Of a stretch of 64,000 nucleotides of DNA, positions 6,118-64,000 are shown one piece after another. The notes under the pieces are model-generated. The model was not told the origin of the DNA, ran no database searches, and saw only the letters and a program-made list of their open reading frames with translations. Origin of the DNA: Escherichia phage IME178. Where the stretch lies: the sequence record NC_104190.1; one strand, written 5' to 3'. Numbering within the stretch: position 1 is the stretch's first letter; the number at the start of each line of letters is the position of its first letter. Position numbers and translations under genes: made by a program.

Positions 6118-6373
6118 GCTAACAGATTTGCTTAAAGATGGAGATGTAAAATATCTCCAGCGGGATAGCTGGGGTAATTGGGATGCTCGTACTTATTACT
6201 CTACTATTATAAAAGTAGATGTTGATAATAATGATATTATCGAGTTTACCTGGTGGCCCAATGAAGATGGGTATACCAAGTTCGATATAAAAGACGCAAC
6301 ATGGAAGACCACCTCCCTAACCCTAGAAGAAGCTCTGGCGGATGATTGGGAGATCGTTGAGCTAGATGTATAG
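6110..6373 (+). CDS. hypothetical protein
   Basis: ORF track 6086..6373; probable GTG start at 6110 after AAGGA, overlapping the upstream stop. Confidence 0.45.
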   Translation: MSKLTDLLKDGDVKYLQRDSWGNWDARTYYSTIIKVDVDNNDIIEFTWWPNEDGYTKFDIKDATWKTTSLTLEEALADDWEIVELDV

Positions 6374-50989: not shown

Positions 50990-51014
50990 ATAATCTCCTA
51001 TTATAAAAATGTAT

Positions 51015-51043
51015 TTGCTTTCATCCCTCTATTTTGCTATAAT
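51015..51043 (+). promoter_or_regulatory. sigma70-type early promoter (TTGCTT-17-TATAAT) with conserved ATAAATTAGAAATGGAGAGA leader, driving llp
   Basis: Same promoter family as the replication genes, in the divergent pb5/llp intergenic region. Confidence 0.5.
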
Positions 51044-51074
51044 AGATTCATAAATTAGAAATGGAGAGATAAAT

Positions 51075-51341
51075 ATGAAAAAGTTTGTGATTGCACTAGT
51101 TGCCGCAGTTATGTTATCTGGTTGTGCACCTGCTCCCAAACCATTTTGTACTGGATTTGTAAAATCTTTTGGGGGTGCGGGAGAAGAACATTATGGCCTC
51201 AAGGTTCAAAAAGTTCGTATTAAGGGAGATCGCTTCCCAGTAGTACAACTCCGTACTAAATTTGGGTGGTGGGATCTCAGTCAGTTTGACCTTAAATATG
51301 GTGATTGTAAATTTAAACTAGAGCAATCTAACTACCTGTAA
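51075..51341 (+). CDS. llp: Llp-like lytic-conversion lipoprotein
   Basis: 88 aa with signal peptide and lipobox LSGC; divergent from the receptor-binding gene. Confidence 0.65.
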   Translation: MKKFVIALVAAVMLSGCAPAPKPFCTGFVKSFGGAGEEHYGLKVQKVRIKGDRFPVVQLRTKFGWWDLSQFDLKYGDCKFKLEQSNYL

Positions 51342-51518
51342 TTAGTATAAAGCAAAAAGACATCTAAGTAAACTAAATTTTTTATTTTTTGGACGGTATA
51401 TTGGCAGAAACCACTATGTAAGAAAAGTAGAAGTCCTTCTAGGAAGTCACAAGCATGGTTGGTTGTGCACAAATTATAAAATAATTTAAAATACCACATT
51501 TATTGGAGCATGAAAGAT

Positions 51519-51647
51519 ATGTCAAATAAAAGAAAGAACAGGCGTGGAGAAGTTTACGAAGCGTGGATTAATATTTACGGATTTGGTTTTGTATTATTCC
51601 TAATCTTCGTAGGTTTTTGGTTAGCAGCTATGGCGGGGTGGATCTAA
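51519..51647 (+). CDS. small single-pass membrane protein (42 aa)
   Basis: MSNKRKNRRGEVYEAW then hydrophobic helix; below the ORF-track length cutoff. Confidence 0.4.
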   Translation: MSNKRKNRRGEVYEAWINIYGFGFVLFLIFVGFWLAAMAGWI

Positions 51648-51802
51648 TGGAATGGGTAATTATTGGCATATTCGTCTTATTGATACTTATCTTTGTAGGC
51701 TTACGTGTAATAGATACCTCTATAACCCAAACAGAGATTAAATTAATGCAGTTGAGCAATAGATTATCTAGAATTGAGACTTTATTAGAGGAGCGTAAAT
51801 AA
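51647..51802 (+). CDS. small membrane protein, MEWVII family member 1
   Basis: MEWVIIGIFVLLILIFVG...RIETLLEERK; ATG overlaps previous stop. Confidence 0.5.
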   Translation: MEWVIIGIFVLLILIFVGLRVIDTSITQTEIKLMQLSNRLSRIETLLEERK

Positions 51803-51909
51803 TGGAATGGGTAATTATTGCACTACTAGGGATTGTGATTATCGGGCAGTGTATTTTAGATAATCATCTAGCTAGAATTGAAACCTTATTATTGGAGAAA
51901 CGTAAATGA
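51802..51909 (+). CDS. small membrane protein, MEWVII family member 2 (35 aa)
   Basis: MEWVIIALLGIVIIGQ...RIETLLLEKRK; paralogue of the preceding ORF. Confidence 0.45.
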   Translation: MEWVIIALLGIVIIGQCILDNHLARIETLLLEKRK

Positions 51910-52100
51910 TGGAAGCGGCAATTACACTAATGGTAATATTAGTTTGGATAATCTTTATTGCCTCTCGTATTGTGTACGTTCGCCTAAAAACTCTAGAAGC
52001 CCAGGTAAAACAACAACAAGTTGCTCTAGAAAAGCTAGTATTACTCCAACGTTGTGATAGCACCCGTATTCTGCAAATTGAGAGGGAATTAGATGTTTAG
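51906..52100 (+). CDS. small membrane protein (64 aa)
   Basis: N-terminal TM helix then coiled charged tail; ATGA overlap. Confidence 0.5.
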   Translation: MMEAAITLMVILVWIIFIASRIVYVRLKTLEAQVKQQQVALEKLVLLQRCDSTRILQIERELDV

Positions 52101-52338
52101 TATTGTAATTGCTTTTATTATCGGGATACTCGCGGGAGTTTTCGGAACAACTGCGGCAATTAACAAGCATCGGGAATATATTGCGGGAGTGACGCGGGAG
52201 ATTGCGGAAAGGGAGCGGAAGTTTGACGAGAAACGTGCGGAGTTTGAACGAGAATGGTCGGATGGTTCTCGGGCGTCGCGGAAGAGATTTCGCATGTCAG
52301 AATCAGGAGACAAGCCGGTAGACAGGAGAAGCTCATGA
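52093..52338 (+). CDS. small membrane protein with charged C-terminal tail (81 aa)
   Basis: TM helix MFSIVIAFIIGILAGVFG then Arg/Glu-rich tail. Confidence 0.5.
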   Translation: MFSIVIAFIIGILAGVFGTTAAINKHREYIAGVTREIAERERKFDEKRAEFEREWSDGSRASRKRFRMSESGDKPVDRRSS

Positions 52339-52538
52339 AAGAATTCGGGCAGTTTAAAATAACCCAAGAAAAACTAGAAAAGATGGGTATCACCCAAAAG
52401 ATGCTACAGGTTTTTCCTAAGTCTTCGGAAATTCCAGAAGGATTTATGAGGTTTTATGAAGCTATAGAGTACATTAATAATCTTGTTAAAACGGACCCTA
52501 CGTGGCAATCAGTTCTCAAGCAGTTAGCCCATAAATAG
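52335..52538 (+). CDS. hypothetical protein (67 aa)
   Basis: ATG 52335 six nt after AGGAG (track 52254..52538). Confidence 0.45.
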   Translation: MKEFGQFKITQEKLEKMGITQKMLQVFPKSSEIPEGFMRFYEAIEYINNLVKTDPTWQSVLKQLAHK

Positions 52539-52695
52539 CGCTAATTACCAATCCTCCAAATTTCATAAGATTACACATGGAGGTGTGTCCAGTGGCCCCC
52601 CAGATGAGAATGAGTCTCATTACCGCCCGGTACTTAGCAGGCTAATAGTCACGGCATGTTACCATTACACACCGTGACTATTTCAACTTTAATTA

Positions 52696-53430
52696 TTACG
52701 CAACTTTTAATTTCTCAATATATTGTTGCGGGCTGCAACTATATTCTGCGCGTTCTTCCTCGGTCATACCTTCCCAGCATAATTTCAAACGATCAGCTAG
52801 GAACTGATAATCATTATCATCGTCGAGAGATTCATCAATAAAGGTTTCACCTATCAATGCCACGCCGATTGATAGAATATCATTAACGGCTTGTGCGTCC
52901 AGCGTTTTAAATCCGTATGACGCTGCCGCTGATAACACGCCTTTATGATCATCAATCATTGTAAATTCAGCGTTCGGATATAACTGTTTAAATAACTCAA
53001 AATAATAAGATTTATATACTGCGTCTTTACTATGGTAAATTTCGCTAACCTTATCAGCTTTAAAATATTTATGCAGTGTATCACGGGAAAATACGCGAAT
53101 ATTGCTTTTATCACGACCGCGTAAACCTTGTTTGCGCAGGAAGTAATAATCTGATTTGCTCATTAGTCGAGCGGTACAAATAATGTTTAAAGTATTTGCG
53201 TCATTCATGCACTGGCGCATGTATTCAACTAATGGTAATAATGTATCTTGCATTATTAAATGATGTTTGCAGGCTTCATTTTTATATTTATTTAAATCTA
53301 AATTGCCCTCATTATCAAAGCAAGGCGCTACACGATGGAAAGAATTAACGATAGTGCCGTCTAAATCCCAAATCATAACGCGGGAAATATGCGGGAAGCT
53401 GCGGGAAATGTTCATAATAGCTTTATTCAT
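52696..53430 (-). CDS. dmp: 5'-deoxyribonucleotidase (dmp-like, HAD family)
   Basis: 244 aa with HAD motif I WDLDGT; same length as T5 Dmp; lies in the pre-early block. Confidence 0.7.
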   Translation of the reverse strand: MNKAIMNISRSFPHISRVMIWDLDGTIVNSFHRVAPCFDNEGNLDLNKYKNEACKHHLIMQDTLLPLVEYMRQCMNDANTLNIICTARLMSKSDYYFLRKQGLRGRDKSNIRVFSRDTLHKYFKADKVSEIYHSKDAVYKSYYFELFKQLYPNAEFTMIDDHKGVLSAAASYGFKTLDAQAVNDILSIGVALIGETFIDESLDDDNDYQFLADRLKLCWEGMTEEERAEYSCSPQQYIEKLKVA

Positions 53431-53516
53431 TTGTTACGTTCTCCATTTAAGGGATTAGATTAATTCAATCTAGCCCACTAATTATATTTTATTAGTGGGC
53501 TATGTTCAATTAACTA

Positions 53517-53915
53517 TTAGAACGCCAGACCAAAAGCAAGAGCATCAGCGATAAAACTAACATCCTCACCTGATACATGGGAACGAATACCCGCGCAGGT
53601 ATATACTTTTGCGCTGATCAATTGATCATCGAGGCAAGCGAGGCAAGGCGCGACAACTGCAAAGGCTAGACCGGATTTTACGGCGTCAATGATAATCGTT
53701 TCTTGTTTCACTGTGTCAACATAAACACCTGCGGCCTTAATGTAGCTACTTGCGCGGCCTTGCGCATAGGCAAAGGTAGTAACCTGCAAAGCGTCATTGA
53801 AATCTAACAGATCATCAATAACGTGCCCCGCCTCGACGTGGTAACGTTCACCATTAGAATAAACCAGAACAATGGAAGACTGAGCGCGGTCAAATGGAAT
53901 ATTTTGCTTTTTCAT
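53517..53915 (-). CDS. hypothetical pre-early protein
   Basis: 132-aa ORF flanked by intergenic stem-loops. Confidence 0.45.
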   Translation of the reverse strand: MKKQNIPFDRAQSSIVLVYSNGERYHVEAGHVIDDLLDFNDALQVTTFAYAQGRASSYIKAAGVYVDTVKQETIIIDAVKSGLAFAVVAPCLACLDDQLISAKVYTCAGIRSHVSGEDVSFIADALAFGLAF

Positions 53916-53953
53916 GTTTATAAAACTCCAATTAGTTTAATAATGGATTTAAT

Positions 53954-54211
53954 TTATTTGATAATAATCTGCATCTGGTACGGCGTTAATTCACCGTTTA
54001 CGGGTAAATTATTATCGCTTAGCCACTCATAAAAAGCGCTATCGTCATCAAAAGGAACAACATCATTATCACGGGAATCGACGGAAATAATGCCATCAGT
54101 ATTAGTTTTGGCGGCTAGGATAGGCCCGAAGCTGTAAACTTTATCGGATTCCATTTCATCCGGTGAAATGAATACTTTTTCGTCCAATGTTTTGGGTAAT
54201 GTAACTTTCAT
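53954..54211 (-). CDS. hypothetical pre-early protein (acidic)
   Basis: 85-aa ORF. Confidence 0.45.
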   Translation of the reverse strand: MKVTLPKTLDEKVFISPDEMESDKVYSFGPILAAKTNTDGIISVDSRDNDVVPFDDDSAFYEWLSDNNLPVNGELTPYQMQIIIK

Positions 54212-54267
54212 TTTTTGTGACTCCTGTAATAGCGGCTGTATTTCAAGCCGCTAGGGAAATAATTTAA

Positions 54268-55932
54268 TTACGCAAAGAATTTACCATTCTTAAAGTCAAT
54301 CAAAGTGCGTTGACCGTTTGCATAGGTAATTAAATGCGTTTGCGTCCAGCTTGACGCGCCAACGTTGTAACCCATATCCAGACTACCCGCTACGCCAGCG
54401 GTATATACGCCACCGTAAATGCTGGCGGTATGGGTGTGCCCCGTGTTCAATTTACCCAATTTCTTAAATTGTTTCGGGTTGCCACGGCTGCCGTTAATGC
54501 CGTTGTGACCGTGTACGCCGCATTCAATACCTGCAATCTTGAAAGATTGGTCAGTGGTTAGGAAAATGGCGTTAAACTCACAACCTGCAACCTTGCGCAA
54601 CGCATAATCTAGCACGTTGAAGGTATCGTCATGCTCACCGATTGCCGCATAGATTGCAGCATTCAGGCGGTGATACAGTTCCGCGTTCGCGGGATCGTCT
54701 TTGATGTTAGCATTACGATCATCAAGCCAACGGGATAACGCTAGATCGTGATTTGATTCAACAATGATTGTTTGACTAAAATCACGTTCCATTGACTCCA
54801 GCACGCGACCGGTATCGATAAGGTCATCCAGAACTTTATCACGTCCGGCGGCATACTGTTTCGCTAGGAATACACCCGAAGCGCGGTTATGATGATTGCG
54901 CGATGTAAAATCGTGAACGTCATGGATAAACTGATATTTTGGTTTAAGAATATCAAGCAAGCTATTTTCGCCAGCCCAAGATGCGGCGGCGCACTCTTCA
55001 TCTAATTTTTCGGCGTGAATATCACCATACTGCAAGCCTAAAACATGCCCCGATGTCTCATAGCATCCGGCAGGAGTAGCGCACACATTCAGATCATAAA
55101 ATACCCCGCTTTCGTCCATCGTTTCGAGCTGGCGTACAAAAAATTCCCCGTCCTCGTCGAACTCAACAATCAGCGCACCGAAGTTATGCAGTGCTTCCGC
55201 TTTTTGTCCTGCTTTCTGCTGAATGTAGTTTTTGAGCGTTGCCGTTCCGGTTGAGTACATACGGCGCACTACTTCACCTTTTAAAGCTGGTACGCTTTCA
55301 GCGGTAATTTTAGCGTGACCAATTGCCAGACCTTCAATATTTAAAGCCGTTGCAGTTTCTGCGAATCCAGAAAGCGGATAATCTGCGGTAGGCAAAACAT
55401 TAATTTCAGCCATGAAAGCAAAACGGCGGTTATTTAAAAACACGTTTTTGCTGCAAATATATTTATCAAACGCAGAATCATATTTGATTCCGTCTGCACC
55501 TTCTCCATTTTGGAAGCCGTTTTTATTATAAATATACTTAGAAACAAGCAAATCGGCACCGATATATTCAGCGAATTTTTCCAGACTTGCTAAAAAGTTT
55601 TTATGCGGGAAAGTATTATTCTGAATCGACGTAATAATAAAACGTTTACCCTGTTTTACTTCCCATTGCTCAACCGTACTAGAAACAATCCCAGCCGCTT
55701 CGGGGCGCTCGTCGTTTTTAATGGCTTTTGCTACTTTTGCCGCTTTCGGTTTAGCTGGTTTGTTTGCTTCCAGCCAATCACAAATGGCGGTGGAATGTTT
55801 CGTTGTATCGTAGACTGCTTTTGATATATCGTCGCAGACCTCCAGTTTAGTAGCGCGCAGACGTTTACCATAGAAATTAAAGTCAGCGGCCATTTTCAGA
55901 ATAACGGTTTGTTTTTCTGCGGAAATAATCAT
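54268..55932 (-). CDS. A1: A1-like pre-early protein (metallophosphoesterase-type nuclease)
   Basis: 554 aa (T5 A1 is 556 aa); metallophosphatase motifs GDIHAE, GVHGHNG, GHTHT. Confidence 0.7.
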   Translation of the reverse strand: MIISAEKQTVILKMAADFNFYGKRLRATKLEVCDDISKAVYDTTKHSTAICDWLEANKPAKPKAAKVAKAIKNDERPEAAGIVSSTVEQWEVKQGKRFIITSIQNNTFPHKNFLASLEKFAEYIGADLLVSKYIYNKNGFQNGEGADGIKYDSAFDKYICSKNVFLNNRRFAFMAEINVLPTADYPLSGFAETATALNIEGLAIGHAKITAESVPALKGEVVRRMYSTGTATLKNYIQQKAGQKAEALHNFGALIVEFDEDGEFFVRQLETMDESGVFYDLNVCATPAGCYETSGHVLGLQYGDIHAEKLDEECAAASWAGENSLLDILKPKYQFIHDVHDFTSRNHHNRASGVFLAKQYAAGRDKVLDDLIDTGRVLESMERDFSQTIIVESNHDLALSRWLDDRNANIKDDPANAELYHRLNAAIYAAIGEHDDTFNVLDYALRKVAGCEFNAIFLTTDQSFKIAGIECGVHGHNGINGSRGNPKQFKKLGKLNTGHTHTASIYGGVYTAGVAGSLDMGYNVGASSWTQTHLITYANGQRTLIDFKNGKFFA

Positions 55933-56022
55933 AGTAATAAAACTCCATTAAAGGGATTAGATTAATAATGGCAATATTGCCAAATATAACGCCTCAAATA
56001 ATAGGCGTTATAATTTGCAACA

Positions 56023-56220
56023 TTAATTTAAAGGCACTAGGCTAGAACTAACACCACAAGCAACGGCAGCGATAAAACAAAGCAGACCTAAACGTTTTGC
56101 TAACTTAGATTTACGTTTAAAATAATACGAATCTAAATCATTTTGAAAATAAGCGAACAATAATGAGGCCGCCATAATAAACAAGCCTAGAATCAAAGAT
56201 TCAGTAGGGAAGAAAACCAT
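56023..56220 (-). CDS. small two-helix membrane protein
   Basis: 65 aa, two hydrophobic segments. Confidence 0.45.
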   Translation of the reverse strand: MVFFPTESLILGLFIMAASLLFAYFQNDLDSYYFKRKSKLAKRLGLLCFIAAVACGVSSSLVPLN

Positions 56221-56310
56221 TTTTAAAACTCCTGATTTAAGGGAAGAAAATAACTATCGCTAAACAGTTATATTATTGCCCCCTCACTAGAAGGGGGCAA
56301 GGTATAACTA

Positions 56311-56718
56311 TTATTCGCCTGCGGCTTGTTTTACTTCATCAGCAACGCCTAACAATTGCGCTACTGCGTCCAGCGTTTCAAGTTTTGCACTTTCAAGGCT
56401 TGCCAGATCATCGGCGTCTTTGATAATACCGGAATCGATAGCGTGTTTTGCAATTACTCGCACATAGTGAGCTTTACGCACAGAGCTACCGCCGCCAACT
56501 TTACGCGGCTTATCGCTTTTTTGATAGGCTTTTGCACTGGTCAATTTTGAGCGAACGGATACAGGGGAAGCCGCGCCTACTGCTTTTGCAATCTCTTTCA
56601 GGCCGTCGCTATTTGCGAAATCTAAACCGTTTTCATTGATTAACTGCTGGTACATAGAAACAGCTTTCTGAGTGTTTTCTTCGTTCCATGCGAATTTTGC
56701 GGTTTTAGCGTTAGTCAT
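56311..56718 (-). CDS. A2: A2-like pre-early DNA-binding protein
   Basis: 135 aa, adjacent to A1 as in T5; paralogous to the ORF at 6480..6890. Confidence 0.55.
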   Translation of the reverse strand: MTNAKTAKFAWNEENTQKAVSMYQQLINENGLDFANSDGLKEIAKAVGAASPVSVRSKLTSAKAYQKSDKPRKVGGGSSVRKAHYVRVIAKHAIDSGIIKDADDLASLESAKLETLDAVAQLLGVADEVKQAAGE

Positions 56719-56816
56719 GATAAAAACTCCTATTAGTTTAATTTAAGGGATTAGATTAACTTAATGTTAATCGTTATATCCCCCTGAAATAAGGGGGATA
56801 TAAAGTTAACACTAAA

Positions 56817-57068
56817 TTACAACACAGCTTCCCATTTTTCGTTGCGTTGAACAACCTTTACAACATCGCCGGATTTAACGCGAACGCTAAAAACGGGCTT
56901 GCCGTTGTTACTGCGTTCATTTTCAGCATATACCGCGTCGATTGTATCGAATGGCATAAGCGCCGCACCTTTAATACGTTCGGCCTTTCCGGTTAATTCA
57001 TCCGTTTTAGTAACGAAAGGAATAAAGACGGATTGACCAATTTTAGGCGCGGTAATAACGTTTTGCAT
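56817..57068 (-). CDS. hypothetical pre-early protein
   Basis: 83-aa ORF followed by stem-loop and leader motif. Confidence 0.45.
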   Translation of the reverse strand: MQNVITAPKIGQSVFIPFVTKTDELTGKAERIKGAALMPFDTIDAVYAENERSNNGKPVFSVRVKSGDVVKVVQRNEKWEAVL

Positions 57069-57829
57069 AATATAGACTCCAGTTATTTGATGGATTGTTC
57101 CGCATTACCTGCTAGAAGGTAGCAGGTAATAAGTAACAATCCGCTCGCCAGTTTAATCAATTTAAAGAACTCCACGTAGGCCGCTATATCCCGTTAGGGG
57201 GCGGGGCGCATTATGGTAAGCACCGACCGTCAAATTTTATCAAGTTATCGCTCTTATCGAACTGGGTACATCTTAAAACCTATCGGCTAGGTTGTCAAAT
57301 AATTTTTTGCAGTTTTTTATGATTTTCTTTCAAGTCAATCATAATGTTTCGCCAGATCATTTCCAGACCTTGCTGGCGACCTTTCTTGTACTGCGTGAAT
57401 CTATATTTTACTGATCTTTGAGCTACTGTCAACAAATTTTTTTGTTTTGCTATCTAGTGCCTTAATAGGCTTGCCAGTGATCAAAAGCGTTTGTTTCATA
57501 TCGTCGATTCCTTATAATGAATAAGTTTACCGCCGATAGGCTTTAAGATATACCCAATTTTTTAAAGAGCGCGGCGGTAAACTTTCCGCCGTGTAGTTCG
57601 TCATTGCCGCCCTACGAGATAAATAATAACAAACAACGAAAAAAGGCGCAACCTTATTTTTGTAAAGAAATGTAAAGACACGATCCACCGAACGGCGTGC
57701 GGCGACGGCCTAAAATTAAAAGAAACGGGCGCGCGAATACCACAAAACAGAGCAAATAGGCAAGTAATTTTTTCATTTATATTTGCTTTGCCCTACTTGA
57801 CAAAATCTAAAAAGCTCGTGGCAGCGATA

Positions 57830-58320
57830 AACGGCTTATCCCCTTATGATGGGATGGCTAAAAACTTTATTGCGTTCTGGAGCGTTTTAGACGCATTCTA
57901 GCCCTGTTGATAACTTATCCCCAAAAGCAAAAATGAAATTTTCCTAGTTATCCACTTGACTTTTATTTTCCAGTGGATAACTACTTATTTTATGAAATAA
58001 ATTAATTGACTTTTGTTTGCTAGTATGTATCGGAAAGATAGCAGACTAATAATTGCTAGAATGATAATCATGCTGGTGGATTGTAACAGCGTAAACTATT
58101 AGCAGACTATTAATCACGGAAAATCTCATTAGCTAACTAACTATTTCATGTTATATAATATACATATAAATTAATGAGAAATAATAACTACAAGAAATCA
58201 TCTAGCTAAGTGAGAACCACTATCATTTAAGTTATCCACAACGTTATCTACAGCACAAAATAACTTGACACGATAGGCGGCGATATAAGGACTTTTGCAC
58301 AGACTTATCCACAGGTTATT
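57830..58320. promoter_or_regulatory. non-coding region with DnaA-box cluster and inverted repeats
   Basis: Exact TTATCCACA at 58232-58240 and 58305-58313; inverted TTATCCACT pair at 57948-57956/57972-57980; TTATCCCC half-boxes nearby. Confidence 0.55.
58131..58159 (+). promoter_or_regulatory. early-family promoter-like element (TATAAT at 58154-58159, conserved ATAAATTAATGAGAAA leader)
   Basis: Matches the conserved -10/leader motif; weak -35; about 450 bp upstream of 58608. Confidence 0.35.
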
Positions 58321-58607
58321 CCACTGTATAAATATACAGGGTAAAAAGGTAGTGTTAACAACTGCAATCAATTTTAAGCGGCCTAAATCGCATTCTAACG
58401 AGCTAAACGCTGCAAGGTAATAGTAAAGTAAAGCCTCAATGTTGCGGCCTGGTGGCTTCACCGTGTTTTGCTCTTTACTACACCGCTGCGCGGTTATCAT
58501 AAAAGTAGGCGCTAGGCAAGGAATAAAAAACATTTTCTTTTTTCTTGCCCCTAGTGAACAAATATCTATATCATTCACCTACCGATTAACGAGGGGGACA
58601 AAATAAA

Positions 58608-59612
58608 ATGTCTACTGTAAGAATTGCAGTACCAGCAAACGCCACTATTATTAAAGGCAGTTTGCGCAATCTGTTAGATGGTAGTAGCGTGGCAAGCGTA
58701 CAGCATACCGCTACTATTATCGAAAAGATTCATGATAGAATTTTAGACGATGAGGATACTCATTATTCAGTTGAAGATTTCACACAATTACTAGACCAGA
58801 AAAGGGCGCTAGTAATTTTCAACCGTGATTATCACATTTTCCGCAATCAACGTGGAAGTGATATTGATTTTATCATTGTTGGTTATAGTGAGTCTAATAG
58901 TGGTTACATTGCGCGATTATATAACGTGCGAGAAAAAGAGCAAGTAACAGCAACAAAAGTAAGTAATATCAGGACTGATAGTGTCGGATCGTTATTAACT
59001 AGCATTTGGCGTGAACTATCAGCTAATTACAAAAGTGCTGATAGTGATGTAATTTCTACAACTGGCGTGTTATGTTTTGAACGCGCTAGTGGCAACATGT
59101 TGATCCCTAGTGATTATTTAGAGTATGGGAATGAATCAAACGTTGCAAATGCTGGATTTACACTAAAACCAGTTGACAATATTGAAAAACATGCTGTAAA
59201 TTCTAACACTCAAAGCGTTAATACTCAAACTACTGAAAACAAAGGAAAAAACACCATGACCAAGATTGCTAACATCGTTGCCGCTAATAAATCCGCTGTT
59301 GTAAATGCTGCAAAACTGGAAGCGGGTAAAATTGCATTAACTCAAATCACGAAAGTAGCGGCTAAAAAAGCACCGTTCATGATCAAAGGTTATATCGATA
59401 CGCCTATTGGTCGGGTAGTGATTGCTAACCTGCTGAGTGTAGCGGTTGACCAGTACGCACCGACTAACCAAAAAGCGAAAGCGGTAGCAGGGGCGGCTAT
59501 GGAAGCGGCAATGCTGGAAATGGTGCAAAGTTTTAACATCGCTGAAATGATTGATGAAATGGTGAAAGGTATTGATATTTCTACTTTTACCACTAGCACC
59601 GAAATCGAGTAA
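58608..59612 (+). CDS. hypothetical protein
   Basis: 334-aa ORF with RBS GAGGGGGA; no recognisable motif. Confidence 0.55.
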   Translation: MSTVRIAVPANATIIKGSLRNLLDGSSVASVQHTATIIEKIHDRILDDEDTHYSVEDFTQLLDQKRALVIFNRDYHIFRNQRGSDIDFIIVGYSESNSGYIARLYNVREKEQVTATKVSNIRTDSVGSLLTSIWRELSANYKSADSDVISTTGVLCFERASGNMLIPSDYLEYGNESNVANAGFTLKPVDNIEKHAVNSNTQSVNTQTTENKGKNTMTKIANIVAANKSAVVNAAKLEAGKIALTQITKVAAKKAPFMIKGYIDTPIGRVVIANLLSVAVDQYAPTNQKAKAVAGAAMEAAMLEMVQSFNIAEMIDEMVKGIDISTFTTSTEIE

Positions 59613-59677
59613 TAATATTTAGTGGGGATTATTTCCCCACTTTACTATTCCCTTGTTAATTAATAGGAGGCTAATAA

Positions 59678-60172
59678 ATGGCTGAGGAAAAATACGGCTT
59701 CTCGCTAGGAGAAGTGAGCACGGCTAAACATGATATGATCATTTTAGTCGATTGTCATACTGGCTATTGCGGGGAAGGGAATACCGAGGAATATTTTGTT
59801 CCTGCTGGTACGGATCTAGACGCTTTAGCTCACGAAATGGCTATTGATAATGCTTCTCGTTTTGGTAGCGATGGATATGAGGATGAGGAAACGGGCGAAT
59901 GGTATGAGAATGAAAACGTATATGCAAGCCTTTATCATTATCAGTTAAGTAAATCCGGCACATATGTAAACGGCGGCGATCCTATTAATTCCGTCATGAA
60001 ATTAATTATTAAATATGGCGGCGTCGAGATAGTTGGTAACAAAGCGGTAATATACGCAAATCGACTAAAACAGCTTGTTTATATTCCTGATAGTACCCGA
60101 TGGGAGGAATACGCTGTTTTGCATGACGAATTGAAACGATGTTTCAATGTTGAATCCTTACAAGTAGTCTAA
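59678..60172 (+). CDS. hypothetical protein
   Basis: 164-aa ORF, RBS TAGGAGG. Confidence 0.55.
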   Translation: MAEEKYGFSLGEVSTAKHDMIILVDCHTGYCGEGNTEEYFVPAGTDLDALAHEMAIDNASRFGSDGYEDEETGEWYENENVYASLYHYQLSKSGTYVNGGDPINSVMKLIIKYGGVEIVGNKAVIYANRLKQLVYIPDSTRWEEYAVLHDELKRCFNVESLQVV

Positions 60173-60276
60173 TGTAAAGTTTTGTAAAGGTCGCCTTTTA
60201 TGGCGGCCTTTTTTGTTATAATGCCTTTACACCAAAACGGTGGATTGAAAATTTCCCAAAAATTTGGAGGCTTAAA

Positions 60277-60507
60277 ATGGTTGCTTATTCTTCTGCTAGT
60301 CATCTGTTCACCGCTCAAGGTTGGGTGTCCAATCGCGTTGTTATCCATGAGATGGTGCAGGAGTTCGGTATTGCTAAAACTTATAATACCATTCAGGAGC
60401 TTTATAACGCCGATAAAATCGATCAGCAAACGGCTGGCTTTTTACTGGATACCCTGAAAGCGGAACACTGTACCAAAAAACAAGCTGCAAAAATTGTTTT
60501 AATGTAA
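60277..60507 (+). CDS. hypothetical protein
   Basis: 76-aa ORF, RBS GGAGG. Confidence 0.5.
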   Translation: MVAYSSASHLFTAQGWVSNRVVIHEMVQEFGIAKTYNTIQELYNADKIDQQTAGFLLDTLKAEHCTKKQAAKIVLM

Positions 60508-60553
60508 TTAGTAACGGGGGATATTATATCCCCCACTGACTAGGAGAATAAAA

Positions 60554-60703
60554 ATGATTATTTTTCGAGCTATTCTGGCGGGTATCTTGGGCGCTATTTT
60601 ATCGTTGTTTGCAATAGCTTTCGGTGTTCACGCCGTTATTATCGGCGCTGGCATTGCTGCGTTTTCTTATCTGCTGGGCTGCATGACTAGTAAAGGAGAA
60701 TAA
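60554..60703 (+). CDS. small hydrophobic membrane protein (49 aa)
   Basis: MIIFRAILAGILGAILSLFAIAFGVHAVIIGAGIAAFSYLLGCMTSKGE; RBS TAGGAGAA; below the ORF-track cutoff. Confidence 0.45.
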   Translation: MIIFRAILAGILGAILSLFAIAFGVHAVIIGAGIAAFSYLLGCMTSKGE

Positions 60704-60705
60704 AA

Positions 60706-60918
60706 ATGATTCGTAACGTTTCCCTTGCGCGTTCGAAAGGTTTTAAGCTGGTGGATGTTAACACGTTCGAGCGGGAAGATTGTAAAATCGAATATGTAGC
60801 ACGTAACAAAAATGCCTTTCGTGTTACTGAGAAAAAATTCGACAAGCGCGGCAACGTGATAGCTGAAACAGTTAAACACTTTGCCACCTTTTACGCTGCG
60901 TTTCGTGGGGTATTATAA
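60706..60918 (+). CDS. hypothetical protein
   Basis: 70-aa ORF, RBS AAAGGAGAA. Confidence 0.5.
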   Translation: MIRNVSLARSKGFKLVDVNTFEREDCKIEYVARNKNAFRVTEKKFDKRGNVIAETVKHFATFYAAFRGVL

Positions 60919-60919
60919 A

Positions 60920-61264
60920 ATGGTTATTTATGAGGGCAATCGTTTTGTTGCTAATTGCCGTCCGGCATTATTAGCAAACTACTTAAACCAGCTTTCACCA
61001 GCTTATAAGGGCGTTATTAATATTTATGAGGGCAAGGCGCATTATAAAGTCAATGCGGTTGTTGCCCGTGAACTAGCGTTTCAATTTTTGACCTTTGCAT
61101 CTTGCGACGTTCAGGTTATGGGTGAAGCATTAATTGCAGAAAATGATGATGATTTTATTAATATTTTCCGCAAGGTATGTACCGAGCGCCTGATAATGAA
61201 AGGCGCGTATATTCAATCCACTGCGGATAGTATTGAAACAGCGTTTCGAAAGGTGGCGCAATGA
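60920..61264 (+). CDS. hypothetical protein
   Basis: ATG 60920 in frame with track ORF 60881..61264. Confidence 0.5.
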   Translation: MVIYEGNRFVANCRPALLANYLNQLSPAYKGVINIYEGKAHYKVNAVVARELAFQFLTFASCDVQVMGEALIAENDDDFINIFRKVCTERLIMKGAYIQSTADSIETAFRKVAQ

Positions 61265-61476
61265 GCGAAATTACTTGGGGTACACTGCTGAAGGTTAAAC
61301 GGGTAAAATTAACACAAGATTTATGGGGAGTAGGTAAAACAGGGGATGTATTCAATGTGTTTAAAGACTCACATCATAGGTTTATAAGAAGAAATAACAA
61401 TATGGGCACAGCGTTTTATTTAATTGATTTAATCAAGTTATATGGTGAGGATATTTTCGAGCTAGAATATGAATAA
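61261..61476 (+). CDS. hypothetical protein
   Basis: 71-aa ORF with ATGA overlap. Confidence 0.45.
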   Translation: MSEITWGTLLKVKRVKLTQDLWGVGKTGDVFNVFKDSHHRFIRRNNNMGTAFYLIDLIKLYGEDIFELEYE

Positions 61477-61609
61477 CTATATAATTTTTTTGAGGTATTG
61501 CAATGAGATTATATATTTTCGTTGGTAATGTTGAGGCAGCTAATGATTCCGCTGGTGGCGATAACGTTCGCCGCTATTGACAAAAATATATTTACTAGGA
61601 GTTATTATT

Positions 61610-61804
61610 ATGGTTACGCTGATTTGCATTAAAGCCGATGGCGACACGATAGCACGGAAAGGGCAAAAGTATAAAGCCCAAAAAGATCGACTACTCAAAA
61701 CAGTTGAGCGTTACACAGTGCCCGATCTCAAATATTCAGTAGTTGGGCGCGAGGGGATTCTAAGGGCGACACTTGAGAACGCTATTTTTGAGATAGTCAA
61801 CTAA
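61610..61804 (+). CDS. hypothetical protein
   Basis: ATG 61610 after AGGAG (track 61577..61804). Confidence 0.45.
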   Translation: MVTLICIKADGDTIARKGQKYKAQKDRLLKTVERYTVPDLKYSVVGREGILRATLENAIFEIVN

Positions 61805-61819
61805 TAACGGGGCGTTACT

Positions 61820-62014
61820 ATGAGCAATAAAATTGTTGTAACCAAAATCAGTACAATGGTTGATGTTTTTTACGTGCCCGATACGCCGGAAAACCGACAA
61901 GCGGTCGAGCGTGGTGAGTATGATAAGGTGATTTATGATCACGATGGTTATTATCAGCATTTAGTGGATTCCTACGGGGAGGAGGAGAAGATCACGCATC
62001 GACTACCCGACTAA
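61820..62014 (+). CDS. hypothetical protein
   Basis: 64-aa ORF. Confidence 0.45.
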   Translation: MSNKIVVTKISTMVDVFYVPDTPENRQAVERGEYDKVIYDHDGYYQHLVDSYGEEEKITHRLPD

Positions 62015-62291
62015 TAATCACGGGGCGCAACTATCAGGAAGTGCCCCCAATTGTCAAATGAGAATGCTTCTCATTTGACCGCGCCCGCGATGGTTAGCCT
62101 GCTAATGGTTAGGGTGTTACGTGTCGCCTTGTGTGATCGTTAGCGAGCTAACTAATTTCTAAGCCTCCTCCAATTTTGCCCCTGTTTTAGTATCCCCAAC
62201 AAAATTAAACGCGTTAGAATGCGATCTAGGACGTTTTAGCGGTATATTAGAATTATTCACTGCGTAGGAATACTGTATATTTGTACAGTAG

Positions 62292-62381
62292 GATAAGCTG
62301 TTGATAAGTCTGTTGATAACGCTTCAAAATGGCTAGGATTTTGTCAAGTCAAATCGTGCTGTTGATAAGTCTGTGGATAAC
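62292..62381. promoter_or_regulatory. duplicated GCTGTTGATAAGTCTGT(T/G)GATAAC element with exact DnaA box on the reverse strand
   Basis: Two copies about 60 bp apart; TGTGGATAA at 62372-62380. Confidence 0.5.
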
Positions 62382-62614
62382 TTAAATAATAGTGTTTCTC
62401 ACTTCCATTCTTGAATGATTCTCATTATCATTCGCATTTCACTATCTAACTAATAATCATTTCACTTTTTAAATGAGAATCGTTTCACTTCCTGAATAAT
62501 TTTTATTTCACTTTCTAAATACAAATCATTATCATTCGCATTCCGCTTTTTAAATGAGAATGATTCTCATTTTTATTCGCATTCAGGCGAGCAGGGCAAT
62601 TGCCCTGCGCTTTT

Positions 62615-63264
62615 GTGCAAAACCGACATTTGCCCCCATGGATTACGCGTGGGCGTGTATGTGCGAATCCGACAATTTTTGGTAGTGTGCAAATCCGACC
62701 CGAAAAATTTTCATAGTGTGCGAATCCGACAATGAATTTTCCTAAAAACTCCAGCAATCCGATGCTGCGCATCAATCCTGTGGAATTAGCTAGAATATGT
62801 GCAAATCCGACATGGGTTTATTTGTGCGAATCCGACAAGATTTTTGTGACTTCGATGAGAGGGTGTGTGATTGTGTGGGTTTGGGGAGAAGTTGAGAGAG
62901 CGAGAGAAAATTAGGGGAACTGCGAGAGGGGCGCATGTTTGGTGCGGAGCACCCGATTTGCGGGGGTTTTGGAGAAGAGTTGAGAAGATTTGGGTTAATT
63001 TGAGATAAGTGCAGATAAAGTAAAATTTTATTAGCTAAATTGGGTTAATTTGAGATAAGTGCAGATAAAGTAAAATTTTATTAGCTAAATGGGGCAAAAT
63101 AGCTTGACAAGTGAAAATTTCTGTGGCTCTAAAAACTCAGGCAATCATGGGCCTTCGGCCCGAAATAATGCTGCCATTTTCAGGAGATTATATATTCCTA
63201 AAAACTTAGGCAATTGTGCAAATCCGACCATAAATTTCTAGAAACACAATGTGCAAATCCGACA
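62615..63264. repeat. array of eight irregularly spaced copies of GTGC(A/G)AA(T/A)CCGAC(A/C)
   Basis: Copies at 62615, 62661, 62687, 62718, 62799, 62824, 63216, 63251; an 18-bp perfect palindrome GCAGGGCAATTGCCCTGC at 62591-62608. Confidence 0.6.
62991..63090. repeat. perfect 50-bp tandem duplication
   Basis: TGGGTTAATTTGAGATAAGTGCAGATAAAGTAAAATTTTATTAGCTAAAT occurs twice back to back. Confidence 0.7.
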
Positions 63265-63728
63265 GTAATTTCTGGAAATGTGTTTTCAAAAAATGTCTCC
63301 TAGAAATAACCGCCCTCCCTATAACCGCCCTGTATTAAACCGCCTAGTATATGTTCCTAGAAACTTAGGAGAACCGCCCACTAGAAGTGTGATATCTCGT
63401 GAGAACTCTGGAGTTTCTAGGAAAGTGTTGTGCCATCCTAGCAGATGAGCGGCAACAGGTGTATCATCTTGAACACAGATATTGCCTTTAAATATTATAA
63501 AATAAATTAAAAGTAAAGTAGCCCCCATTACATGTGTGCTTACTCGTGGGGCGCGTGATTAATTACGTAAGTCCTCGACTGTCATACCTCTGTTGCTCGG
63601 TCGCAAAGAGTTAACGAAGTCTCGTGTAATAATCATCGCCCCTAGAGTTCAAAACAAGAGTTGTTTTTAATCTATGTGATTATTATAACATGTGCCGCAA
63701 TGAGTTGTCAAGAAGATTTTGTTAACGT

Positions 63729-64000
63729 TTATACATCCCCTTCGAGATTGGTATTGGGATCGTAAATCTTCTTGGCTCCTGTATTTAATAGGAATCGCTC
63801 TGCAAGTTGTGGGTGAATATCAAAGAACTCTGTGCATCCTTCGAATCCCTTTAAATTACAGCGGTATTTCTTAAAGTAGATATGAGCAGCGGCTTCTAGA
63901 TCTCTAGGATTATGGGTTTCATAGATCCCATACACGTATAAATCATCAAAACCACGATAGACTATCTTATCTAAGTTTAGTGTTTGAATCCTATTATGTG
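63729..64000 (-). CDS. hypothetical protein (5' end beyond window)
   Basis: Minus-strand frame is open from the window edge to stop at 63729; track ORF 63729..63935. Confidence 0.4.
   Translation of the reverse strand, partial: HNRIQTLNLDKIVYRGFDDLYVYGIYETHNPRDLEAAAHIYFKKYRCNLKGFEGCTEFFDIHPQLAERFLLNTGAKKIYDPNTNLEGDV

What the first reader, a model, noticed from the sequence alone, without database searches (positions are those of the whole stretch)
53440..56760. Conserved leader motif TTAATCTAATCCCTTAAAT upstream of dmp, A1 and A2, each preceded by a stem-loop
In mRNA sense the ATGs of dmp, A1 and A2 are each preceded by near-identical TTAATCTAATCCCTT(T)AA(A/T)T then GGAG (plus strand 53440-53457, 55948-55965, 56742-56759), with a partial copy upstream of the 65-aa gene. 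Each motif follows a GC-rich stem-loop lacking a U-run. It does not fit a sigma70 -35/-10 spacing, so it may be a processing site, translational operator or non-canonical promoter element for pre-early expression.
Basis: seen in the sequence. Interest (0 to 1): 0.55.

Follow-up and report, generated by a model that had tools for sequence, protein, structure and literature searches.

The report
Shared leader motif of T5 pre-early genes
The repeated sequence is real and belongs to a leader signature (hairpin, short run of C in a G-free A/U stretch, ribosome-binding site) that marks only the first-injected "pre-early" genes of T5-like phages; it most likely boosts or controls their translation and is not a promoter.

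Summary
The window is a T5-like phage (Tequintavirus). The region is the leftward pre-early operon: T5.007 homologue, A2, T5.005 homologue, A1, two small ORFs, dmp. The 19-mer TTAATCTAATCCCTT(A/T)AAT occurs three times exactly, where shuffles give none. Each copy lies 0-10 nt upstream of GGAG and an ATG, and each follows a hairpin without a U-run. Degenerate copies precede the other four cistrons.

In relatives the 5' half (TTAATCTAA) varies. The conserved part is a C-run in an A/U context, then a G-free spacer, then the Shine-Dalgarno (SD) sequence. This signature occurs in pre-early operons of seven Demerecviridae lineages, on the coding strand of both divergent operons. It is almost absent elsewhere: all 5 strict hits in the 64-kb window are pre-early, and the Proteus phage has 4 in its pre-early locus and 0 in 49 kb of early/late genes.

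The motifs lie inside a polycistronic unit downstream of the mapped promoters P_H22 and P_D/E20, and they do not fit sigma70 geometry. My best reading is an upstream element of the translation initiation region, of the S1/standby enhancer type, for internal cistrons. RNA processing, or an operator for class-wide control, is not excluded. The mechanism is inferred, not shown.

The parts
53445..53463 (-). Motif copy 1 (TTAATCTAATCCCTTAAAT), directly 5' of the dmp SD (GGAG 53441-53444; ATG 53428-53430)
55947..55965 (-). Motif copy 2 (TTAATCTAATCCCTTTAAT), directly 5' of the A1 SD (GGAG 55943-55946; ATG 55930-55932)
   Evidence: ATCCCTTTAATGGAG is identical in 23 of the 27 aligned T5-like sequences; the whole alignment has only five single-base changes in these 15 columns
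56741..56759 (-). Motif copy 3 (TTAATCTAATCCCTTAAAT), followed by TAAACTAATA and then the A2 SD (GGAG 56727-56730; ATG 56716-56718)
   Evidence: ATCCCTTAAATTAA is invariant in 23 sequences
56235..56253 (-). Partial copy (TTATTTTCTTCCCTTAAAT) 5' of the SD of the 65-aa membrane-protein gene (T5.005 homologue; GGAG 56229-56232)
54251..54265 (-). Degenerate copy (AATTATTTCCCTAG) just after the A1 stop codon. Here the hairpin 54230-54253 lies between the C-run and the SD of the 85-aa ORF
53930..53953 (-). Degenerate copy (ATTAAATCCATTATTAAACTAATT) 5' of the SD of the 132-aa ORF. The C-run is reduced to CC here; it is CCC in T5 and most relatives
   Evidence: It shares ATTAAACTAAT(A/T)GGAGTTTT with the A2 leader (D13)
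57081..57099 (-). Degenerate copy (AACAATCCATCAAATAACT) 5' of the SD of the 83-aa DUF7177 gene (T5.007 homologue). T5 has AATCCCCCTT at this place
53456..53516 (-). Extended intercistronic hairpin (23 pairs in the MFE fold) from the stop codon of the 132-aa ORF. Its 3' arm includes the motif's first 8 nt
   Evidence: In one search, 7 pairs carry compensatory changes
55972..56025 (-). Intercistronic hairpin upstream of A1 (10-bp apical stem; 21 pairs in the extended MFE fold). It includes the palindrome TTGGCAATATTGCCA
56757..56819 (-). Extended intercistronic hairpin upstream of A2 (27 pairs in the MFE fold; 20 kept in the consensus fold)
   Evidence: (one pair shows four pair types: CG, GC, AU, UA)
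56263..56312 (-). Intercistronic hairpin upstream of the 65-aa gene (10 + 10 pairs)
59648..59680 (+). Same signature in the rightward pre-early operon: TTCCCTTGTTAATTAATAGGAGG..ATG (164-aa ORF), preceded by hairpin 59621-59641
60253..60279 (+). Same signature in the rightward pre-early operon: TTCCCAAAAATTTGGAGG..ATG (76-aa ORF), preceded by the terminator-like hairpin 60186-60211
60528..60556 (+). Looser instance in the rightward operon: ATCCCCCACTGACTAGGAG..ATG (49-aa ORF). The spacer contains one G

Best explanation
The motif is the local, homogenised form of a leader element that is specific to the pre-early gene class and acts in RNA.

The intercistronic gaps of the two pre-early polycistronic mRNAs mostly share one plan: stop codon, conserved hairpin without a U-run, then an unpaired G-free A/U-rich stretch with a C-run at about -24..-20, then the SD, then AUG. 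In T5-likes the C-run reads AAUCCCUU and the SD is usually GGAG, in several cistrons with no complementarity beyond those four bases.

I propose that the C-run and its A/U flanks are an upstream part of the translation initiation region. It would act as a single-stranded landing or standby site, most plausibly for ribosomal protein S1 on the 30S subunit. This would let internal cistrons that follow a stable hairpin recruit ribosomes very efficiently.

That need would be peculiar to pre-early genes. They must be translated in competition with the full pool of host mRNA before host shut-off, which would explain why early and late genes lack the element.

The hairpins probably insulate or stabilise the cistrons, as 3'-end protection or processing sites.

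Shown: the anatomy, strand dependence, class specificity and cross-genus conservation. Inferred: the S1/standby-enhancer mechanism and the competition rationale.
For: 1. The repeat is real and non-random: 3 exact 19-mers against 0 in shuffles.

2. It lies within an operon, not at a promoter. The mapped promoters P_H22 and P_D/E20 are upstream of T5.007, and there is no sigma70 geometry at the motif.

3. The core is conserved where the flanks are not. Upstream of A1, TTATTAATCTAA is replaced by AACAAACGTTTTT in T5 and many relatives, while ATCCCTTTAATGGAG is nearly invariant (identical in 23 of 27 sequences).

4. In Sugarland, My1, Proteus M4H10_20, Vibrio phi3 and Cody, and Aeromonas TS3 (A1 protein 32-73% identical), many independently initiated pre-early cistrons again show a hairpin, then WHCCCWW or a close variant, an A/U spacer and the SD. 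By the strict test each locus has between 1 of 5 and 5 of 7 such cistrons; several more carry looser AACC-type variants.

5. Enrichment is strong. The strict core is present upstream of 24 of 47 pre-early starts against 3 of 84 early/late starts (Fisher p = 2e-10).

6. A stricter composite was also counted: core, G-free spacer, SD and the ATG of an ORF of at least 40 aa.
   - Window: 5 hits in 64 kb, all pre-early.
   - Proteus phage: 4 in the pre-early locus, 0 in 49 kb of early/late genes.
   - Other Demerecviridae pre-early loci: 1-6 each.
   - 26 non-Demerecviridae A1-homologue loci (about 250 kb): 2 in all.

7. The position profile is distinct. C frequency is 0.33-0.43 at -24..-20 against 0.14-0.19 in controls, and G is depleted from -31 to -15.

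8. Orientation follows transcription in both divergent operons, which argues for action in RNA.

9. The core is unpaired in the MFE folds and lies next to the SD.

10. At the 85-aa ORF the hairpin lies between the C-run and the SD. Folding would bring the two to within about 8 nt.

11. From memory, not tested here: S1 binds single-stranded pyrimidine-rich RNA, and one of its sites prefers poly(C) (Draper and von Hippel, 1970s). A/U-rich S1-dependent enhancers upstream of the SD are established (Boni; Komarova).
Against: There is no expression, toeprint or 5'-end data for these leaders in any paper I could search.

Known S1-type enhancers are A/U- or U-rich, and a conserved C-run is not a described feature of them.

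The spacing from C-run to SD varies from 5 to 16 nt.

The flanks of the C-run are uniform within a genus but differ between genera: AAUCCCUU in T5-likes, UUUCCCU in the Proteus phage, AACCC or UAACC in the Sugarland and Vibrio phages. That pattern fits a co-evolving phage factor, or gene conversion, as well as it fits a host factor.

Some independent cistrons lack the element (My1 at 3931, Proteus at 6249, and the first cistrons after the promoters). In the window two cistrons have only CC.

The split between independent and translationally coupled cistrons is only a trend: 22 of 39 against 2 of 8 (my tabulation).
Confidence: 0.42

Rival explanations
1. RNA processing or stability module. The extended hairpins would be cleavage or 3'-protection signals (RNase III, as in the T7 early region, or RNase E in the A/U stretch just 3' of the stem). 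The conserved element would define the 5' leader of the processed monocistronic mRNAs.
For: The MFE stems are 21-27 bp with internal loops and start exactly at the upstream stop codon. Compensatory changes show the stems are selected. There is no U-run, so they are not classical terminators. The motif begins at, or overlaps, the 3' base of the stem at dmp and A2. The layout, strong host-RNAP promoters feeding a polycistronic early RNA with a hairpin in nearly every gap, parallels the T7 class I transcripts (established knowledge).
Against: Only the apical 10-12 bp of the stems is firmly supported by covariation. The lower stem at A1 is not recovered in the consensus fold. Stems in other genera are often only 8-12 bp, which is short for RNase III. 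The conserved C-run keeps its register with the SD, not with the stem base, and at the 85-aa ORF it lies 5' of the hairpin. No RNase E-type consensus is shared by the copies (inspection).
Confidence: 0.2
2. Class-wide operator. The element would be bound by a dedicated trans-acting factor, either a pre-early or early phage protein or a host RNA-binding protein. That factor would co-ordinately repress, activate or destroy all pre-early mRNAs, as a post-transcriptional arm of the A1-dependent shut-off of pre-early expression. This would be analogous to the T4 RegA or RegB regulons.
For: Class specificity is strict: 5 of 5 hits in the window and 4 against 0 in the Proteus phage. The flanks of the C-run are uniform within a genus and differ between genera, as expected if a phage-encoded partner co-evolves. 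The element is close to the SD, where a bound protein would block initiation. Shut-off of pre-early expression is known to need A1 by an unknown mechanism.
Against: No candidate RNA-binding protein was identified. The leftward pre-early proteins gave no Pfam domain except DUF7177. The literature I could read attributes shut-off to transcription (A1-RNAP interaction). No complementary anti-motif RNA was found in the window: the only exact matches to the reverse-complement probe TTAAGGGATT are two of the motif copies themselves, a third copy matches with one mismatch, and the remaining one-mismatch hits number no more than in shuffles. Uniformity within a genus can also arise by gene conversion.
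Confidence: 0.17
3. Recombination linker. The shared sequence would be mainly a by-product, or a facilitator, of module shuffling and gene conversion between pre-early cistrons. It would serve as a boundary sequence at which cassettes are exchanged, with no direct role in expression beyond carrying an SD.
For: Upstream of the 132-aa ORF, four unrelated upstream contexts join the conserved block exactly at the C-run. At least four hairpin types are joined to one motif-plus-SD block at dmp. The A1 copy has acquired the TTAATCTAA extension only in some lineages. Other leader pieces are also duplicated between cistrons (D13 and D18). One genome carries TAATC three times (L011).
Against: A passive relic would not be kept in genera whose intergenic DNA is otherwise unalignable. 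It would also not be restricted to -24..-20 on the coding strand with G depletion around it. Junctions at the 5' edge of an initiation region are expected in any case if that region is part of the functional gene module.
Confidence: 0.12
4. Non-canonical promoter or other DNA-level site, for example a binding site for A2 or RNAP, upstream of each gene.
For: The motif contains -10-like hexamers (TTTAAT, TTAAAT). A2 is annotated as DNA-binding.
Against: There is no conserved -35 at 16-18 bp (and inspection). A start 7 nt after these hexamers would fall in or after the SD. Only P_H22, P_D/E20 and P11 are mapped in the pre-early region, and no promoter at A1, A2 or dmp is mentioned in the passages I read. 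Strict co-orientation with the mRNA, and register with the SD in both operons, favour RNA.
Confidence: 0.04

Closest known systems
A/U-rich, S1-dependent translational enhancers upstream of the SD (for example the T7 gene 10 leader 'epsilon' and the atpE leader)
   Same: A single-stranded element a few to about 15 nt 5' of the SD, in phage or highly expressed mRNAs, that acts in cis on ribosome recruitment. The T5 core CCCUUUAAU resembles the CUUUAA stretch of the gene 10 leader (comparison from memory).
   Different: It is defined by a conserved C-run in a G-free context, not by U/A-richness alone. It is restricted to one temporal gene class and conserved across a whole phage family. There is no complementarity to 16S nt 458-466; the best runs are to 785-793 and 240-247 and involve non-conserved positions. 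Function is untested.
RNase III processing hairpins between T7 early (class I) genes
   Same: Strong host-RNAP promoters drive a polycistronic first-expressed transcript with a conserved hairpin lacking a U-run in nearly every intercistronic gap, directly followed by the next initiation region.
   Different: The covariation-supported stems here are only 10-20 bp. No cleavage data exist. T7 sites are not followed by a conserved C-run element.
T4 RegA (translational repressor) and RegB (GGAG-specific endoribonuclease) regulons
   Same: A loosely conserved short sequence at or near the initiation regions of many first-expressed phage mRNAs allows class-wide post-transcriptional control. T5-like pre-early SDs are nearly always GGAG.
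   Different: RegA sites overlap the AUG and RegB cuts within GGAG. Here the conserved element is 5-16 nt upstream of the SD. No RegA or RegB homologue or other factor was identified. GGAG is also common in non-pre-early genes.
T4-type PeSL mobile regulatory cassettes and lambdoid 'boundary sequences'
   Same: Repeated short regulatory modules (a stem-loop plus a conserved signal) sit between small early genes in a plastic region. Mosaic junctions coincide with them.
   Different: PeSLs carry an early promoter followed by a stem-loop. Here the order is stem-loop and then a translation leader, with no promoter.
boxA (NusB/NusE antitermination signal)
   Same: CCCUUUAA differs from the boxA core CUCUUUAA by one base.
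   Different: Variants in other genera (CCCAUAAA, CCCUAAU) lose the resemblance. A much better boxA (GCTCTTTAAAAA at 57559-57570; CGCTCTTTAACAA in My1 and the Proteus phage) exists separately at the head of the operon.

Membership tests
sigma70 promoter | -35 and -10 hexamers with a 16-18 bp spacer, placed so that the transcript includes the SD | tested here: not met
   The scan lists no site at 53445-63, 55947-65 or 56741-59. -10-like TTTAAT or TTAAAT would start transcription in or after GGAG.
sigma70 promoter | Experimentally mapped transcription start | not testable with these tools
   The literature reports only P_H22, P_D/E20 and P11 in the pre-early region.
Intrinsic (Rho-independent) terminator | G+C-rich hairpin immediately followed by a U-run | tested here: not met
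   The hairpins are present but their tails are AACGAUUAAC, AGAUUGAAUU and AUAUUUGGCA. Only the small palindrome 55969-55982 was flagged, weakly.
Epsilon-type enhancer (pairing of mRNA with 16S rRNA 458-466) | Complementarity of the conserved element to 16S nt 458-466 | tested here: not met
   The best Watson-Crick runs are to nt 785-793 (9 nt; 11 of 300 shuffles do as well) and to 240-247. Both use positions that are not conserved across phages.
S1-dependent A/U-rich upstream enhancer or standby site | Unpaired, G-poor, pyrimidine/A-U-rich tract just 5' of the SD | tested here: met
   The core is unpaired in the folds. G frequency is 0.00-0.10 at -31..-15 against 0.08-0.25 in controls.
S1-dependent A/U-rich upstream enhancer or standby site | S1 or 30S binding, and loss of translation on mutation | not testable with these tools
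   Needs toeprinting, EMSA and reporter fusions.
RNase III processing site | About 20 bp or more of mostly continuous double-stranded RNA | tested here: inconclusive
   MFE stems are 21-27 pairs. The consensus folds keep 17-20 pairs at dmp and A2 but only 10 + 6 at A1. Stems are shorter in other genera.
boxA antitermination element | Match to GCUCUUUAACA | tested here: not met
   The motif has UCCCUUUAAU, which is 7 of 12 (inspection). A true boxA-like site lies elsewhere.
Any curated RNA family (Rfam 15) | Covariance-model match | tested here: not met
   There is no family match over the motif copies. One sub-threshold chance hit (MIR5291, 25.3 bits against a gathering score of 54, plus strand, 53458-53516) overlaps the dmp-upstream hairpin and six bases of copy 1. 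The only other hits are likewise sub-threshold chance matches elsewhere in 51000-64000.

The most novel reading that the evidence does not exclude
The C-run leader would be a class-specific 'address label' read by a dedicated factor: a pre-early or early phage protein, or a host RNA-binding protein exploited by the phage. That factor would switch translation or decay of all pre-early mRNAs on and off together. This would give T5-like phages a post-transcriptional regulon that contributes to the long-unexplained A1-dependent shut-off of pre-early expression.
Probability: 0.17. Interest if true: 0.8.

Novelty: new variant of a known kind. Interest (0 to 1): 0.55.

Why it matters
How T5 switches its pre-early class on so strongly, and off again after a few minutes, is still unexplained. 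Only promoters and the A1 requirement are known.

A cis element that marks only pre-early cistrons, and is conserved across Demerecviridae phages of Escherichia, Salmonella, Klebsiella, Pectobacterium, Proteus, Vibrio and Aeromonas, gives a concrete and mutable handle on the post-transcriptional side of that programme.

If it is a strong portable ribosome-recruitment element for internal cistrons that follow hairpins, it is also of practical use for operon design. It would complement the T5 promoters that are already standard tools.

It also gives a simple sequence signature for recognising pre-early (first-step-transfer) operons in new Demerecviridae genomes.

Tried and rejected
- Promoter reading: no fit in the sigma70 scan. 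Manual -35/-10 trials give no shared -35, and the starts would fall after the SD.
- sigma54 reading of TTGGCAATATTGCCA: the GG-to-GC spacing is 7 nt, not 10, so I rejected it on inspection.
- Pairing with 16S rRNA: the 9-nt complement to the 790 loop (785-793) is real but marginal (11 of 300 shuffles) and uses the non-conserved half. The 7-8-nt complements to 238-247 lie in a region that, from memory, is paired in helix 11. There is no match to 458-466. I recalled possible pairing with helix 45 or the 3' tail but dismissed it on geometry.
- SD sequestration by the C-run: RNAalifold draws UCCC pairing with GG(A)GA at dmp, but this is 3-4 bp with a bulge, is absent from the single-sequence MFE folds, and the pairing is not kept in other genera.
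- A trans-acting anti-motif RNA: the only exact matches to the reverse-complement probe TTAAGGGATT are two of the motif copies themselves, a third copy matches with one mismatch, and the remaining one-mismatch hits number no more than in shuffles.
- Rfam: no family over the motif copies; one sub-threshold microRNA-model hit overlaps the dmp hairpin.
- Literature: full-text search for the sequence strings returned only unrelated papers. The T5 and BF23 papers I could read do not mention leaders, RBS motifs or intercistronic hairpins. Davison 2015 is not held, so prior description there, or in Wang et al. 2005, cannot be excluded.
- Exact-pattern scan of IMG/VR with AATCCCTTWAATGGAG: 76 stretches. 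All leader-context hits are T5-like, and the rest are unrelated sequence contexts with no start codon at the leader distance.
- GGAG enrichment as a RegB-like hint: GGAG is present at 11 of 12 pre-early starts but also at 20 of 38 control starts, so it is weak. The Fisher line printed used mistyped counts and should be ignored.
- Vaccinia-type topoisomerase IB site (CCCTT) and T5 nick sites: considered from memory only. E. coli has no TopIB, and the one nick annotated in the T5 terminal repeat lies elsewhere. I did not pursue this.
- Pfam on the seven leftward proteins, looking for an RNA-binding candidate: only DUF7177.

Full report
**Identity of the region.**
- The 4-kb stretch around the finding is 95% identical to Escherichia phage EC100. 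It matches 449 phage records, mostly Escherichia and Salmonella T5-like phages, including T5 itself.
- On the minus strand the ORFs are, in order:
  - an 83-aa DUF7177 protein (T5.007 homologue, ATG 57068);
  - A2 (ATG 56718);
  - a 65-aa protein (T5.005 homologue, ATG 56220);
  - A1 (ATG 55932);
  - an 85-aa ORF (ATG 54211);
  - a 132-aa ORF (ATG 53915);
  - dmp (ATG 53430).
- In the annotated T5 record this is the leftward pre-early operon of the terminal repeat. Its promoters P_H22 and P_D/E20 lie upstream of T5.007.
- Recent papers name only three experimentally characterised pre-early promoters: P_H22, P_D/E20 and the one before gene 011.

**Check of the observation.**
- TTAATCTAATCCCTT(A/T)AAT is present three times exactly, at 53445-53463, 55947-55965 and 56741-56759, all on the minus strand. 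None of 100 shuffles gave a match.
- It is the top direct-repeat family of the region.
- GGAG follows directly at dmp and A1, and after TAAACTAATA at A2.
- The 65-aa gene has TTATTTTCTTCCCTTAAAT followed by CA and GGAG.
- Weaker versions precede the remaining three cistrons.
- Each copy follows a hairpin without a U-run. Folding the whole intercistronic RNAs gives extended stems of 21-27 pairs that begin at the upstream stop codon, with z-scores from -3.6 to -5.8.
- Alignments of 23-27 distinct T5-like sequences show compensatory changes in the apical stems. One A2 pair occurs as CG, GC, AU and UA, and 7 pairs at dmp carry double changes.

**What is conserved.**
- Within T5-like phages the 5' half of the 19-mer is not constant.
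  - Upstream of A1, T5 and many relatives have AACAAACGTTTTT where the window has TTATTAATCTAA.
  - ATCCCTTTAATGGAG, by contrast, is identical in 23 of the 27 aligned sequences.
  - Upstream of dmp there are at least four unrelated hairpin types. They are joined to (A/C)ATCCCT(T/C)(A/T)A(A/T) plus GGAGAACGTAACAAA.
  - Upstream of the 132-aa ORF, four unrelated upstream contexts join the conserved block exactly at the C-run.
- I then looked at other Demerecviridae lineages whose A1 protein is 32-73% identical: Klebsiella phage Sugarland, Pectobacterium phage My1, Proteus phage M4H10_20, Vibrio phages phi3 and Cody, and Aeromonas phage TS3.
  - Their intergenic DNA does not align with the window.
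  - Even so, many independently initiated pre-early cistrons show the same plan: hairpin, A/U, a C-run (ATATCCCATTAA, ATTTCCCAATTAA, ATTTCCCTAATAAA, TTAACCCTGAGA, AAACCCATAAA and so on), an A/U spacer and the SD.
  - By the strict test the number of such cistrons per locus ranges from 1 of 5 to 5 of 7, and several more carry looser AACC-type variants.

**Statistics.**
- The strict core, [AT][ATC]CCC+[AT][AT] placed within -45..-9 of the start (in practice at about -24..-20), is present upstream of 24 of 47 pre-early starts in seven lineages. It is present upstream of only 3 of 84 early/late starts in the window and the Proteus phage (Fisher p = 2e-10).
- Position profiles show C at 0.33-0.43 for -24..-20 against 0.14-0.19 in controls. 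G is almost absent from -31 to -15.
- A stricter composite (core, G-free spacer of 3-20 nt, SD, 4-11 nt, ATG of an ORF of at least 40 aa) gave the following counts:

| Sequence set | Composite hits |
|---|---|
| Window, 64 kb | 5, all in the pre-early region (4 leftward, 1 rightward) |
| Proteus phage, pre-early locus | 4 |
| Proteus phage, 49 kb of early/late genes | 0 |
| T5, two My1-group phages, Sugarland, phi3, Cody and TS3 pre-early loci | 1-6 each, including both divergent operons of Cody |
| 26 metagenomic loci with non-Demerecviridae A1 homologues, about 250 kb | 2 in total |

- The element always lies on the coding strand, also in the rightward operon of the window (59648, 60253, 60528).
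- It is therefore a class-specific, strand-specific and family-wide signature.

**What it is not.**
- It is not a sigma70 promoter. It lies inside an operon with mapped promoters, and a -10 reading would start the RNA after the SD.
- It is not an intrinsic terminator, because there is no U-run.
- It matches no Rfam family.
- It is not boxA. A separate and much better boxA-like site sits at 57559-57570, and exact CGCTCTTTAACAA occurs in My1 and the Proteus phage.
- Complementarity to 16S rRNA does not explain it.
  - The window's AUCUAAUCC is a perfect 9-mer complement of the 790 loop, but 11 of 300 shuffles do as well, and that half of the motif is not conserved.
  - The conserved core has no Watson-Crick run of 7 or more.
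- Pairing of the C-run with the SD is at most 3-4 bp.
- No anti-motif RNA is encoded nearby.

**Most likely mechanism (inferred).**
- The position just 5' of a short SD, the unpaired G-free context, the dependence on orientation and the restriction to pre-early cistrons that mostly follow a stable hairpin all fit an upstream element of the translation initiation region.
- The element would act as a landing or standby site, most plausibly for ribosomal protein S1. This rests on my recollection that S1 prefers pyrimidine-rich single strands and that one of its sites favours poly(C). I did not test it.
- Class specificity then has a simple rationale. Pre-early mRNAs are the only phage mRNAs that must compete with the full host mRNA pool, before host DNA and transcripts are destroyed.
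- The hairpins probably protect 3' ends or act as processing signals, as in the T7 early region.
- I give this reading about 0.4.

**Alternatives.**
- Processing or 5'-end definition: about 0.2.
- An operator for a class-wide regulator, which would bear on the unexplained A1-dependent shut-off: about 0.17.
- A recombination linker homogenised by gene conversion: about 0.12. Junctions at the motif and duplicated leader pieces support it, but cross-genus positional conservation argues against a mere relic.
- A promoter or other DNA site: about 0.04.

**Novelty.**
- I found no description of this element in the searchable literature.
- Two key older sources, Wang et al. 2005 and Davison 2015, are not held, so prior mention cannot be ruled out.
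- It resembles upstream translational enhancers in placement. It differs in its conserved C-run, its strict class specificity and its family-wide conservation.
- I rate it a new variant of a known kind, of moderate interest, with clear and inexpensive experiments that would decide between the models.

Noticed in passing
window 57559-57570 (minus); L069 (My1) upstream of 993 and 1300; L070 (Proteus) upstream of 2522; L068 (Sugarland) upstream of 2316: A boxA-like sequence sits at the head of the leftward pre-early operon: GCTCTTTAAAAA in the window and T5, and exact rrn/lambda-type CGCTCTTTAACAA twice in My1 and once in the Proteus phage. It may load NusB/NusE antitermination factors, so that RNA polymerase reads through the many intercistronic hairpins. 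A single 12-mer is not significant in the window alone. Its recurrence at the same place in several genera is what makes it notable.
   Followed up: partly
window 53481-53509 (minus): A good sigma70-like site, TTGAAC-17-TATAAT, lies inside the dmp-upstream hairpin. It exists only in phages with this hairpin type and not in T5. It could be a lineage-specific internal dmp promoter, or chance.
   Followed up: no
window 55968-55983 (minus): The near-perfect palindrome TTGGCAATATTGCCA between the A1-upstream hairpin and the motif is conserved in all T5-likes and recognisable in Sugarland. It can form its own small hairpin or extend the main stem. It could also be a DNA site for a dimeric protein.
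   Followed up: partly
window 53449-53457, 55951-55959 and 56745-56753 (minus): AUCUAAUCC in the motif's 5' half is a perfect 9-nt complement of E. coli 16S rRNA 785-793 (the 790 loop). 11 of 300 shuffles do as well, and this half of the motif is not conserved in other phages.
   Followed up: yes
L011 4115-4220 (A2 leader of an IMG/VR T5-like genome): The pentamer TAATC is present three times (TTAATCTAATCTAATCCC) where the window has two. This suggests slippage, and that the 5' half of the motif is a short tandem repeat.
   Followed up: no
window 60542-60559 and 60694-60711 (plus); 53922-53941 and 56723-56742: Other leader pieces are duplicated between pre-early cistrons. AGGAGAATAAAAATGATT is identical at two rightward genes, and ATTAAACTAAT(A/T)GGAGTTTT is shared by the A2 and 132-aa ORF leaders (D18 and D13). 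Initiation regions seem to be copied or converged as units.
   Followed up: no
window 5413, 8845 and 51075 (plus-strand gene starts): Several non-pre-early genes carry the classical T5 early-promoter-plus-leader block: TATAATAGATTCATAAATT(T/A)GAGAGAGGAG or TATAATATTTATATAAATTGATAAGGA. This is the N25/P25-type arrangement (my recollection). It shows that other temporal classes use a different stereotyped leader.
   Followed up: no
window 52538-52696: dmp is the last gene of the terminal-repeat unit. Sequence below about 52.6 kb belongs to a different region, with plus-strand small ORFs and then late genes. The window therefore spans a repeat/unique junction, or a circularly permuted assembly with one repeat copy.
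   Followed up: no
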